Assembly: GCA_964016885.1 (NCBI GenBank)
Contig: OZ024741.1
Span: 253,270,001-253,334,000 of the forward strand
From: Eledone cirrhosa
Taxonomy: Eukaryota
Reading direction: 5' to 3'
Length of the DNA stretch: 64,000 nucleotides
The notes beneath the pieces are model-generated. The model saw only the letters and a list, made by a program, of their open reading frames with translations, searched no databases and had not been told where the DNA came from. The translations under genes were made by a program, and so were the position numbers. Below, piece after piece: positions 27,343 to 52,342 of this stretch (the first letter of the stretch is position 1; the number at the start of each line of letters is the position of its first letter).

Positions 27343-27863
27343 ATTGTTATACTTTGGTAGGGTCATGTTGCCAATAAGAAACACACGCACCAGTTGCTTT
27401 CACTTCAATTTATTATAATAAATTTATAAATTTAGGAATTTATAAATTTCCGGTTGGTTGGTTGGTTCCACAACCAAATGGTTGTTTATATATTGTCAAA
27501 GTTCTTTTGTCACACATTCTGTGACCTCTTCAGTGACTGGGGATTCTTTTCTTTGTTTTTGTGCCTCTCCTTTGTTCTGTCCTACGCCATCTTGTTTCTG
27601 TGTGTCAGAAACAAGATGGCGTAGGACAGAACAATGGAGAGGCACAAAAACAAAGAAAAGAATCCCCAGTCACTGAAGAGGTCACAGAATGTGTGACGAA
27701 AGAACTTTGACAATATATAAACAACCATTTGGTTGTGGAACCAACCAACCAACCGGAAATTTATAAATTCCTAAATTTATAAATTTATTATAATAAATTG
27801 AAGTGAAAGCAACTGGTGCGTGTGTTTCTTATTGGCAACATGACCCTCCCAAAGTATAACAAT
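27343..27863. repeat. ~520-bp near-perfect palindrome with a hammerhead motif in each arm
   Basis: Centre TTTCTG-TGTGT-CAGAAA at 27603. Same family as 53446-54018. Confidence 0.92.
27669..27711 (+). ncRNA. Minimal type I hammerhead motif (copy at 53777-53819; mirror copy at 27495-27537 has GAAA>AAAA)
   Basis: GUCA-CUGAAGA-G-GUCAC AGAAUGU GUGAC-GAAA-GAAC-UU/UGAC. Confidence 0.7.
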
Positions 27864-29880
27864 GTATATATATATATATTGTAAGGTTGTCCACACTTTA
27901 AAGTGGTCATGTTGGTGTCTCATCAAAAAGCCCCCAGTACACACTGTAAATATGGTTGGTGTTAGGAAGGGCATCCAACCGTAGAAACCATGCAAGAACG
28001 AGTTCTGTATGAACAAGACATAATCACCTGATGTGATTTGTTTCAGAATGGGATAACTCATCTAACCCATGTTAGCATAGAAAAATGGATGTTAAACAGT
28101 AATGATGATATATATATATATATATATATACATACACATGCATACACGAAAACATATACTCACACCATATATATATATGTTCTGCTATCTATAGTGTCTA
28201 CATTTATATTGTCAATGTAGAAGGAGTTGTGGAAAATACCTAGAGATGCTGGCTGCATGCAAACCCAATAGACACTAATACAGAGTAATGAGTCAAGATA
28301 TTACAATTTCTTAAAACTACATACAGAATGGAAATAGAACCAATTATTATCTTAATGATTCATTGTGGTCAAAAAAGGCTCAGAATTTAGATTAATTAAA
28401 AATTAATAAAAATAAAATGCAATGTGAATGAGTCAATAGCAGTATGATGACAATTTAGGATATGTTTCAGTCTTATTAGATCTCTTCAGTGAAACACAAT
28501 TTAATGATTACTGTCAGATCATAGAATAATTTGAGAGAGAGATTTTAGGATTTAATGAATAAACATTAGTGAGGAGTAGATACATAGGGACACTTACTGC
28601 ATGAAACTTAATAGTAAAGTGGATAAATATATACTTGACTCTTAATATTCTGTACATCATGAAACAGGATTAGTAAGACATTCTTGTAAAGTAAAAAACA
28701 GCATTATGCTTATATGCCTTTAAAATTAAAGACTTTTCTTTAATGCTGTAAATGTTCACAATGATCTGTCCACCAATACTGACACTGTAAACATTTTGAT
28801 GGATTAACAAATCTGTTTTTAGATATTTTCTGCTAAATCATTACAAGGGGTGAAGAGTCAATTAACAAAAATGGATACAGATTATTTTTGGTATAATTGA
28901 CTACATCACATTAAAAATTAAAGTCTTTGCTTTAGTACAACACATTTTCCCACAATCTATCCACCATTGTAGATACTATAAACATTTGCATTAACAAACC
29001 TGTTTTTTTATATATTTTCTACAAAATCATTACAGGATGTTAAGAACTAATGTATATATATATTGTCTACTTATATTATTTAGATAATAAGGAGTTTCTA
29101 AATATGTCTTGACTCCAGCTACAAGATAATGTATAAGTTATGTTAATGACAGCATTCATATGTAAAAAACATTATTGCATCTAATGTCAACTGTATCAAC
29201 AAAATAACTTTTAGTTGTTGTTTAACTGAACAATTTTAAATTATTAAAGTATTTTTCTTGACAATTCAAATCATAATAGACAAATGAGATTTTGTATGAT
29301 GATCATTGAATGAAGAATGGTTAGCTCTTAATAGACAAATAAATTGGATGAAGACCACTGACTCAGAGATGGTGAGATCTTATAGACAAATGAATTGCTG
29401 CTTGAAGGTCACTGAGTCTAGAATGTATGTATGGATCTATAACTATATGCAGTGTCATTGAGTATTTTAAACTGAGTAGAGCCTTTCTCCTCTTCATGTT
29501 TATTTAGGAGAGAGATAGAGAATAAGAAAGAGATGATATAGAGGAAGAATTGATTCCAGTACTTGACTGTTACATTTTTTTATCAACCTCAAAAGGATCA
29601 AAGGAACAGTTGACCTCAGCATGTTTTGAACATGGAGTCCAGAGAGGTAGGATGAGTACCACAAAGCATTCAAATCGACATTCTAACATCTCTGGCAATT
29701 CACTGCCCATGAGGTATGAATGGTTAAATTTTAATTGTGAAATAAACTCTTTTATTAAGGCCTGAGGATCTGGGATGGTTAAATTTTATTAATAAAATTA
29801 ATTGTTATTTTAAGATTATTGAATTTGGGATGGTTAAACTTGAATGACCAAACTAACTGTTGTAATAAGACCATTATTAA

Positions 29881-30098
29881 CCCTTTAGCATTTAAGCCGG
29901 CCATACCCGGCCAGAATTCTCTCACCTCTTTCTGTTCAAACTGGCTGTAACCAACCACTCATACTTATGTTAAGGTATTGTTCTCAAAATAAATATCAAA
30001 ATCTCATAGATTCGATATTATGTAAGATAATTATGTGAAATAAAGTGTTAACTGTGAAAATACAATAGTAAATATAGAGTAATATAAATGCTAAAGGG
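29881..30098. mobile_element. piggyBac-type MITE, best-preserved copy
   Basis: TTAA|CCCTTTAGCATTTA...TAAATGCTAAAGGG|TTAA. Confidence 0.88.
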
Positions 30099-49310: not shown

Positions 49311-50975
49311 TAGACACATACATGCATACTGGCAGACATACATACATACAGGCATACAAGCAGACATATATACTTACATACATACATACATACATGCATA
49401 CTGGCAGACATATATACATACATACAGGCATACAAGCAGACATATATACTTACATATATACATACATACATACATGCATACTGGCAAACATATATATATA
49501 CATACAGGCATACAAGCAGACATATATACATACATACATACATACTGGCAGACATATATACATACATACAGGCATACAAGCAGACATATATACTTACATA
49601 TATACATACATGCATACATACATACTGGCAGACATACATACAGGCATACAAGCAGACATACATACATACATACATACATACATACTGGCAGACATATATA
49701 CATACATACAGGCATACAAGCAGACATATATACTTACATATATACATACATGCATACATACATACTGGCAGACATACATACAGGCATACAAGCAGACATA
49801 TATACTTACATATATACATACATGCATACATACATACTGGCAGACATACATACAGGCATACAAGCAGACATATATACACACATACATACATACTGGCAGA
49901 CATACATACAGGCATACAAGCAGACATATATAAATACATACATACACACATACATACATACATACTGACAGACATATATACATACATACAGGCATACAAG
50001 CAGACATATATACATACATACACACATACATACATACATACATACTGACAGTCATATATACATACATACAGGCATACAAGCAGGCATATATACATACATA
50101 CATACACATACATGCATACTGGCAGACATATATACACACATACATGCATACTGGCAGACATATATACACACATACATGCATACTGGCAGACATACATATA
50201 GGCATACAAGCAGGCATATATACATACATACACACATACATACATACATGCATACTGGCAGACATACATACACACATACATGAATACTGGCAGACATACA
50301 TACAAACATACATGCATACTGGCAGACATACATACACACATACACACATACATGCATACTGGCAGACATATATACACACATACATGCATACTGGCAGACA
50401 TATATACACACATACATGCATACTGGCAGACATACATATAGGCATACAAGCAGGCATATATACATACATACACACATACATACATACATGCATACTGGCA
50501 GACATACATACACACATACATGAATACTGGCAGACATACATACAAACATACATGCATACTGGCAGACATACATACACACATACACACATACATGCATACT
50601 GGCAGACATATATATACTTACATACATACATATAAGCATACTGGCAGACATACATACATACAGGCAGAGATATTTACTTACATGCAGACATACATATATA
50701 CACACACATACACATGCAGGCATTCATACATACACACATACATGCATACAGGCTGACATACATACAAACACACATGCATACAGGCAGACAGACATATATA
50801 CATACACACATACATTCATTCATACATACATACATACAGGCAGACATACACACACACACACATGCATACAGGCAGACATACATACATACATACATACAGA
50901 CATACAGACATCATACATACATAGACATAGAAAGATACATACATAAACGCATGCATACCAACATGCATACATACA
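49311..50975. repeat. (TACA)n-based compound minisatellite
   Basis: Units TACTGGCAGACATA and CAGGCATACAAGCAGACATA are embedded in TACA repeats. There is a 240-bp duplication at about 50103 and 50343. Confidence 0.9.
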
Positions 50976-51949
50976 TGGTGGCTGCCAACTCGTTTTCGAG
51001 TACGGCCACTACTTTATATCCATGTAGGAGAACCCCTCCCGATGCGCTGAACGAGCGTGACTTTTTAGTCCAGCCAGCGACTTGAAAACTCTGGTACAAA
51101 CACTACACCTGTGACAATTATTGACACATAGTGCTGGGCCCATGGTACCATGTGATGACAAGTGCAGAGAGATCTCCAGATATAAAGCAATGCCTGTGCC
51201 GTGAAGCTTTTATAGTGAGCAAAGGCACTGCACAAAGCCAGTCCCACTCTCTTAACCAAGATGATATTTACCAAAAAGAAGAACAAATCAACATCATTGG
51301 ATACCATCAGGGTTGCAGGTGTTATATCAGAGTTTTCCTTCTCCTAGAATTCTGCCTTGACAAAGGCTAAGGGGTCATCTCTCCCGGTGATTTTGGATGG
51401 CCATTGACTCTTAAGAGCTCCTTTGCCCTTTGACAGGTTTTGTTTTTAGTCCTGCAGGATGTCCAAAGTCATATGCATACATACATACATACATACATAC
51501 ATACACACACCTACTGACATACACATACATCACTTCATCTCTCTTTCATTAATGCTAGTAGTAGTAGTAGTAGTAGTAGTAGTAGTAGTAGTAGTAGTAG
51601 TAGTGGTAGTAGTAGTGGTAGTAGTAGTAATAGTACTAGTTGTTGTAGTAGTAGTTGTAGTTGTTGTTGTTGTTCTGCTGCTGCCTAAGCCAATAGATAA
51701 GCAGTTGGATAAATCTGACTGACTAAATATATTTTAAAAATTAAATTTTTAAAGGGTTGTAACTTCTTATATTAACTTCTCCCAAATTCAGCCTTGGCTT
51801 TTGTAATCAGCATGGAAAACTACATCTGTTTAGAGATTTACAATAAAATAAGACCCTGTTCCACAAATGGAATGTATATATATATATATATATATATAGA
51901 TATAGATAGGTAAATATACACGGGTGTGTATGATTGTGTATAGAAGATT

Positions 51950-52342
51950 ATATTAATAAGAGGAATTCCAACTTTGTCTGATTTACTCGTTTTATTTACA
52001 ATCCTTTAAAATATATATAATGGTATTATAATGAAATAGTATGATAGAATATTAAATTCTAAGTGTTAATTGAACAAGTACTTTCATGCTTTCGCAATCT
52101 TCAGGTTCATGATATGTGGTGACAGTCGAGTTTGCAATTTCCAACTGTTGAAAATTGCAAACTCGACTGTCACCACATATCATGAACCTGAAGATTGCGA
52201 AAGCATGAAAGTACTTGTTCAATTAACACTTAGAATTTAATATTCTATCATACTATTTCATTATAATACCATTATATATATTTTAAAGGATTGTAAATAA
52301 AACGAGTAAATCAGACAAAGTTGGAATTCCTCTTATTAATAT
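51950..52342. repeat. ~390-bp near-perfect palindrome with a hammerhead in each arm
   Basis: Centre CAAC-T-GTTG at 52146. Confidence 0.92.
52183..52221 (+). ncRNA. Minimal type I hammerhead motif (mirror 52071-52109 on -)
   Basis: UGAAC-CUGAAGA-UUGC GAAA GCAU-GAAA-GUAC-UU/GUUCA. Stem III is the palindrome AAGUACUU. Confidence 0.88.

What the first reader, a model, noticed from the sequence alone, without database searches (positions are those of the whole stretch)
27343..52342. Inverted structures share one polarity: hammerhead-sense 3' ends point outward toward (TA)n
Seen: at 27343-27863, 36868-37003, 38113-39317, 39657-42724, 42830-43790 and 51950-52342 (and 53446-54018 just beyond), the left arm is hammerhead-sense on the minus strand and the right arm on the plus strand. 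Centres are tiny hairpins (27603, 52146) or 4-nt microhomologies (ACAA ~38797, TATG ~40168). Established: Penelope insertions often carry 5' inverted segments. Inference: there is a common integration mechanism, either cDNA snap-back second-strand synthesis or two target-primed events from both sides of a break in a TA tract. The products would be sources of long dsRNA, of interest given the extensive ADAR editing in coleoids.
Basis: partly seen in the sequence, partly recalled or inferred. Interest (0 to 1): 0.75.

Follow-up and report, generated by a model that had tools for sequence, protein, structure and literature searches.

The report
Penelope-type head-to-head hammerhead insertions
These mirror-image inserts are small, non-coding passengers of Penelope-like jumping genes, and their shared outward orientation, one-sided tail and TA-repeat landing sites are the known footprint of how those elements integrate, here seen in many families side by side.

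Summary
All 7 named inverted structures exist (arms 90-99.5% alike) and all point their hammerhead-sense 3' ends outward. Head-to-head arms, a palindrome at the junction, a tail at one end and (TA)n targets are published hallmarks of Penelope-like element (PLE) insertions, so the pattern is known. The elements encode no recognisable protein and fit non-LTR retrozymes; two are tandem arrays. The centre loop continues the tail-bearing arm in 6 of 6 readable cases and the arms of one insertion share private variants, which favours fold-back of the first cDNA. The tail-less arm ends at a fixed site, and one tail-less arm is longer than its partner, which favours a second priming event. Family-level reads from two individuals argue against an artefact, but locus-specific junctions were not seen. 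The dsRNA/ADAR idea is untested.

The parts
27285..27342 (-). S1 tail (58 bp), on the left arm only, next to (TA)49
27343..27863 (.). S1 palindrome; left arm sense on -, right arm on +; hammerhead cores at 27533 (-) and 27673 (+); 5-nt loop 27601-27605 continues the left (tailed) arm
   Evidence: family context
36869..37005 (.). S2 older palindrome; centre 4-7 nt upstream of the core, 2-nt GG overlap; loop completes stem I of the right arm
37006..37064 (+). S2 probable tail (about 59 bp) before (AT)n; no family copy confirms it
38113..38799 (-). S3 left, tail-less arm: 687 bp, 1.47 units of 467 bp; its 5' end lies 9 nt past the predicted self-cleavage site
38796..39317 (+). S3 right arm, 522 bp, with 71-bp tail; joined by ACAA; its 5' end maps 17 nt from the left arm's 3' end in the unit
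39657..40170 (-). S4 left, tail-less arm (514 of 558 bp of one unit), hammerhead at 39808
40167..42724 (+). S4 right arm: 4.6 near-identical 558-bp units, five hammerheads with 51-nt stem II, 113-bp tail; joined by TATG
42830..43598 (-). S5 left half: hammerhead element (degenerate core 42898), then (TA)16 and part of an (ATT)n-ended interspersed repeat
43599..43787 (+). S5 right half: reverse complement of the left half lacking about 571 bp between two AAAG words; 2-nt GA overlap at the centre; no tail
51900..51948 (-). S6 probable tail (50 bp) between (TA)17 and the left arm
51949..52343 (.). S6 palindrome, hammerheads at 52104 (-) and 52188 (+), centre 52146
53449..53522 (-). S7 short left arm (74 bp), ends at the same family site as S1's tail-less arm; 4-nt AAAT overlap with the right arm
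53519..54018 (+). S7 right arm, core at 53781, tail 53971-54018; same high-copy family as S1
9797..9990 (.). Family F9 copy 1 of 5 (others 11300-11449, 13259-13449, 62058-62257, 63777-63965): 3' half of a hammerhead on each arm, outward polarity, about 80-bp tail on one side
12302..12705 (.). Further head-to-head structure: degenerate hammerhead on each arm (12494 -, 12564 +), 21-nt loop, probable left tail of about 50 bp
11195..11255 (.). Tiny head-to-head stump of the family whose hammerhead lies at 12832 (-); no tail seen

Best explanation
What they are (about 0.9): insertions of short non-coding, hammerhead-bearing elements (non-LTR retrozymes or pLTR stumps) put into (TA)n tracts by a Penelope-like RT/GIY-YIG protein in trans. 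How (about 0.55): (1) the endonuclease cuts both strands in the TA tract; (2) one DNA end primes reverse transcription at the outer of two start sites, giving the tail-bearing arm, on a monomeric, multimeric or circular RNA; (3) the cDNA leaves the RNA and its 3' end folds back on itself with 0-4 nt of complementarity, often at a hairpin in or near the ribozyme, and is extended, giving the inverted arm; (4) this strand is captured by the other DNA end at the inner start site, by a second, usually short cDNA primed there or by TA microhomology; where the second cDNA is long (S3) the two cDNAs are joined directly. Shown in sequence: polarity, tails, fixed ends, microhomologies, shared variants. 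Taken from published work on another PLE: steps 1-2. Inferred: steps 3-4 and the identity of the partner PLE.
For: Polarity 14 of 14 structures, 9 of 9 families, p=0.002. Tail on one side in 12 of 14. Tail-less arm ends at one site per family: 2 of 2 in S1/S7, 5 of 5 within 2 nt in F9; that S7 site is followed by (TA)n in 112 contigs of run X1 and 140 of X6. Loop continues the tailed arm in 6 of 6 readable cases (S1, S2, four F9 copies), and the long arm in S5. True arm pairing is the best of 24 and of 120 possible pairings in F9. S5's right half copies a TA tract and an unrelated repeat. A PLE protein cuts and extends both strands, with two RT start sites that bound the tail (PMC11167929).
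Against: S3 cannot come from one uninterrupted fold-back: its tail-less arm (687 bp) is longer than the tailed arm (522 bp). S1's centre has no templated microhomology. Shared variants also follow from two RNAs of one source locus or from later gene conversion. Two F9 copies share an identical centre. S2, S6 and 12302 tails have no family copy to confirm them. 7 of 7 solo hammerhead elements have no inverted arm, so inversion is optional. No PLE protein was found in 150 of 298 frames scanned, so the partner is unidentified.
Confidence: 0.55

Rival explanations
1. Pure two-ended priming: a dimeric RT primes both broken ends (outer and inner start site); the two cDNAs stall at the same RNA structure or RNA end and are end-joined. 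No fold-back.
For: Explains both outer ends directly (PMC11167929). S3 geometry resembles twin priming: 17-nt gap in the unit map, 5' end 9 nt past the cleavage site. 4-nt overlaps in S3, S4, S7. F9 centres sit in ribozyme stems, where RT could stall twice. S3's outer left unit has 4 private changes against 1-2 in the other copies.
Against: Needs two cDNAs to stop within 0-21 nt of each other in 10 or more cases, also far from the ribozyme (S1 about 65 nt, S6 about 40 nt upstream, S5 in a flank), and does not predict that the loop always belongs to the tailed arm (6 of 6).
Confidence: 0.25
2. Self-priming on an antisense template, as proposed for rotifer Penelopes: the palindrome forms on the template before integration.
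For: Proposed for head-to-head junction palindromes (PMC3846280). Predicts the same polarity and shared variants.
Against: Does not by itself give the one-sided tail; in vitro work used sense RNA as template (PMC11167929). No call here tests antisense transcription.
Confidence: 0.1
3. Palindromic master copies are moved whole (as RNA or as MITE-like DNA elements); the inversion is inherited, not made at each insertion.
For: F9 copies 13337 and 63854 have the same centre and different flanks.
Against: F9 has at least three different centres in 5 copies; S1 and S7 differ wholly in centre; arms pair by insertion; ends are unequal (tail), unlike terminal inverted repeats.
Confidence: 0.06
4. Assembly or library artefact (hairpin or chimeric reads).
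For: No laid record spans S7, and neither S7's own junction nor S1's centre was among the 15 joints listed (374 not shown). S4 units differ almost only in homopolymers.
Against: Arms differ by 0.5-14%, have different flanks, one-sided tails and family-fixed ends. Four opposite-strand joints of the S1/S7 family recur at identical places in raw reads of two individuals, 62-144 reads each.
Confidence: 0.03

Closest known systems
EN+ Penelope-like element insertions with inverted pLTR and tail (Arkhipova et al. 2013, PMC3846280; Craig et al. 2021, PMC8557442)
   Same: Head-to-head inverted 5'-truncated arm, palindrome at the junction, tail at one end, partial tandems, (TA)n or AT-rich targets, hammerhead near the 3' end.
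   Different: No RT-EN ORF; tails 47-113 bp against the 30-40 bp quoted; no target-site duplication can be defined inside (TA)n.
Non-LTR retrozymes (Cervera and de la Pena 2020, PMC7229834; Li et al. preprint 10.64898/2026.07.22.740005)
   Same: Type I hammerheads in non-coding tandem units of a few hundred bp (467 and 558 bp), low GC, monomers to multimers.
   Different: Inverted arms and tails are not described there (word search: 'inverted' 0 in PMC7229834; 1, in a reference title, and 'tail' 0 in the preprint). Circular RNA and cleavage not tested here.
PAc Poseidon element in vitro (Frangieh et al. 2024, PMC11167929)
   Same: Two fixed 3' ends per family bounding a tail; AT-rich targets; uncleaved multimeric RNA as template.
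   Different: They report no homology between start site and cut DNA; here many ends show 2-5 nt of TA-like overlap (read by eye, not tested against chance). They do not address inverted arms.
L1 twin priming (recalled, no call)
   Same: Outward 3' polarity, short junction microhomology, small gap (S3).
   Different: In L1 the two arms are different parts of the RNA; here they are the same sequence.

Membership tests
PLE-type insertion (structure) | Inverted 5'-truncated copy, head-to-head | tested here: met
   14 of 14 oriented structures
PLE-type insertion (structure) | Tail at one end only | tested here: met
   12 of 14; family-confirmed for S1, S3, S4, S7 and five F9 copies
PLE-type insertion (structure) | AT-rich or (TA)n target | tested here: met
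   12 of 14 tail-less ends at (TA)5+ against 10.7% background
Autonomous PLE | ORF with PLE RT and GIY-YIG endonuclease | tested here: not met
   Longest ATG frames 34-112 aa in S1-S7; no GIY-YIG hit in 150 of 298 frames of 65 aa or more, low-complexity ones dropped
Non-autonomous PLE derivative | 3' end or pLTR homology to an autonomous PLE of the host | not testable with these tools
   No whole genome held
Non-LTR retrozyme | Type I hammerhead in each tandem unit | tested here: met
   S4 five of five right-arm units plus left arm; S3 one per unit. S1, S2, S5-S7 are monomer stumps
Non-LTR retrozyme | Self-cleavage and circular RNA | not testable with these tools
   No RNA run and no assay
Rfam hammerhead families | Score at or above the gathering threshold | tested here: not met
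   Best 38.6 bits against 52 (HH9, S3); none for S4-S7
MITE / DNA transposon | Equal terminal inverted repeats at both ends | tested here: not met
   One end carries a tail in 12 of 14; S5 alone has equal ends

The most novel reading that the evidence does not exclude
Retrozyme arrays are written into the genome in one PLE-driven event by rolling reverse transcription (S4: 4.6 near-identical units plus inverted arm and tail), not grown later by unequal crossover; and PLE integration in general closes by a hybrid route in which the first cDNA folds back and is captured by a second cDNA primed at the inner start site. These high-copy mini-families would then be a natural data set that settles the open question of how PLE inverted arms and tails form.
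Probability: 0.35. Interest if true: 0.55.

Novelty: new member of a known kind. Interest (0 to 1): 0.3.

Why it matters
The pattern is a known PLE footprint, but how it forms is still called undefined (PMC8557442). Nine small families in 64 kb, one of them laid by 12,571-15,746 contigs per run, give many natural replicates for telling fold-back from two-ended priming. The tail and inverted arm on tandem hammerhead arrays add structural support to the proposal that animal retrozymes are moved by PLE proteins. Perfect hairpins of 200-260 bp near a cadherin-domain gene could be editing substrates, but that is only a possibility.

Tried and rejected
Whole-genome tabulation: no genome held. Expression and editing: no RNA holder listed; A>G and T>C differences come from DNA or unlabelled runs of a multi-copy family and say nothing on editing. 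Rfam miRNA hits are generic hairpin or TA matches below gathering scores; rejected. The first F9 within/between test had an extraction bug for one arm and was discarded; one search is the corrected one. Idea that arms stop just short of another priming site on a circular template: 3 of 6 arms, p about 0.08 with a rough 0.18 chance per arm, post hoc, and one of the three rests on a loose-end resemblance; not accepted. Assigning S4's left arm to one unit failed: units differ only in homopolymer runs. Palindromes 2637-2817 and 59487-59561 have no hammerhead and could not be oriented; they are left out of the 14. Earlier findings by place and by sequence: none. Literature searches listed no paper on inverted or tailed retrozyme insertions in cephalopods; the library lacks most subscription papers, and supplements were not opened (closed for the preprint), so such a description may exist.
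Full report
Observation. All seven named structures are in the sequence, with arm identities of 89.6-99.5%. A structured type I hammerhead scan (core words recalled) finds 18 motifs against 0.03 expected from 30 local shuffles. S3, S4 and S6 have passing motifs on the minus strand of the left arm and the plus strand of the right arm. S2 passes on the right and has the core on the left. 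S1 and S7 carry the cores but have an extra base in stem II and fail the scan; S5 has a one-mismatch core on its left arm. Rfam sees only S3, below its gathering score. The stated centres are right; S7 adds a third 4-nt overlap, read from the family's loose ends.

Independent cases. F9 is oriented by the 3' half of a hammerhead, 12302 by degenerate cores, 11195 by homology to the motif at 12832. That makes 14 of 14 structures and 9 of 9 families, p=0.002 for random polarity. Two palindromes without a hammerhead could not be oriented and are not counted. Seven further hammerhead elements have no inverted arm, so inversion is common but optional.

The usual anatomy is (TA)n, short arm, centre, long arm, tail, (TA)n. 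The tail is 47-113 bp and sits on one side in 12 of 14 structures; it is confirmed by a second family copy or unit in 9 and only probable in S2, S6 and 12302. The tail-less arm ends at a fixed family site (2 of 2 in S1/S7; 5 of 5 within 2 nt in F9). Tail-less ends abut (TA)5+ in 12 of 14 cases against 10.7% background. S3 and S4 are tandem arrays of 467 and 558 bp. No frame in S1-S7 exceeds 112 aa, and 150 of 298 frames scanned gave no GIY-YIG domain; the RT hits at 44149-45628 lie outside the structures.

Reads. S7 (53449-54016) was laid with four runs: 15,746 and 12,571 contigs (X1, X6; two coded organisms) and 151,805 and 138,175 RAD reads (X21, X22). The tail-less site at 53970 is followed by (TA)n in 112 and 140 contigs, and depth drops across it. 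Four of the 15 listed joints (374 not shown) change strand, each in both individuals. By my reading of the side lengths and read starts, two (53657/53717, 53657/53923) join 5' end to 5' end, one probably does, one is ambiguous; the table does not state polarity. S7's own junction and S1's centre were not among the listed joints and no record spans the stretch, so support is at family level only. X1 may be the assembly's own sample.

Mechanism. For fold-back: the centre loop continues the tailed arm in 6 of 6 readable cases (S1, S2, four F9 copies). In F9 the true pairing of arms is the best of 24 and of 120 pairings. S1's arms share a 4-nt insertion found in 3,541 of 42,665 X21 reads. S5's right half mirrors a TA tract and part of an unrelated repeat, turns on a 2-nt overlap, and lacks about 571 bp between two AAAG words; S5 could also be two nested insertions. 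F9 centres fall in ribozyme stems II or III, though the natural stem II is not known without a full copy. For a second priming event: the fixed tail-less end, and S3, whose tail-less arm is longer than the tailed arm, starts 9 nt past the predicted cleavage site and maps 17 nt from the other arm's start. The simplest account uses both: fold-back of the first cDNA, captured at the inner start site on the other DNA end (0.55). Pure two-ended priming (0.25), antisense self-priming (0.1), inherited palindromes (0.06) and artefact (0.03) remain.

Comparison with print. Arkhipova et al. 2013 (PMC3846280; passages and Discussion) describe inverted pLTRs, an optional tail, junction palindromes, head-to-head as most frequent, and propose self-priming. 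Craig et al. 2021 (PMC8557442; passages) give the same picture, (TA)n targets for Naiads, PLEs in cephalopods, and call the cycle undefined. Frangieh et al. 2024 (PMC11167929; main text section) show cutting and extension of both strands, two RT start sites bounding the tail, and uncleaved RNA as the main template. Cervera and de la Pena 2020 (PMC7229834; passages) define non-LTR retrozymes. Li et al. (preprint; parts 1-3 of 5 and a word search) tie them to PLEs by distribution and phylogeny, without mention of tails or inverted arms. The giant squid paper (PMC6962438; passages) lists 235 hammerheads and clustered protocadherins. No supplements were read. L1 twin priming is recalled.

Context. 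An 825-aa cadherin-domain frame at 31479-33956 (-) looks like a protocadherin first exon; S1 lies 3.6 kb past its end and S2-S5 lie 2.9-9.8 kb before it. A coleoid host is a fair guess from this, not a result. S1 and S6 would fold into hairpins of 256 and 195 pairs if transcribed; transcription and editing were not testable.

Earlier scan notes on other genomes reached the same filing; they are unchecked AI notes and not used as support.

Verdict. Real, well beyond chance, and a known PLE integration signature in new non-autonomous families. The modest gain is the tail-plus-inversion signature on retrozyme arrays and the mixed evidence for a hybrid closing step. Interest 0.3.

Noticed in passing
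window 31479-33956 (-): 825-aa open frame with signal-like start, five Pfam cadherin stretches (E 1.7e-70) and a hydrophobic segment; a GT lies just before its stop; probably a protocadherin first exon.
   Followed up: partly
window 11552-12290 (-), 12832 (-), 34412 (-), 37713 (-), 43993 (+), 52498 (+), 59982 (+): Seven hammerhead elements without an inverted arm; the one at 11850 has a 95-nt stem II and a unit of about 700 bp. With the two-armed ones this is an unusually dense and diverse set of hammerhead families for 64 kb.
   Followed up: partly
window 43445-43744: Nested palindromes: two (TA)n-centred ones inside a larger one whose core is a fold-back of an (ATT)n-ended repeat with many copies in the window.
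   Followed up: partly
window 44149-45631 (+) and about 62460-63640 (+): Broken LINE-type RT fragments; the first hits RVT_1 and a PHD finger, the second is read by eye and had no Pfam hit.
   Followed up: partly
window 1268-1939 (-): 223-aa frame that reads like a Tc1/mariner transposase fragment (by eye; no Pfam hit).
   Followed up: no
window 2637-2817 and 59487-59561: Palindromes without hammerhead or TA flanks; origin not determined.
   Followed up: no
window 51012-51209 (-): Weak C2H2 zinc-finger match below the curated cut-off.
   Followed up: no
window 53227-53423 and 54078-54256: The flanks of S7 are themselves an older inverted repeat (78.8% over the whole match) interrupted at a (CT)n(TA)n tract.
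   Followed up: no
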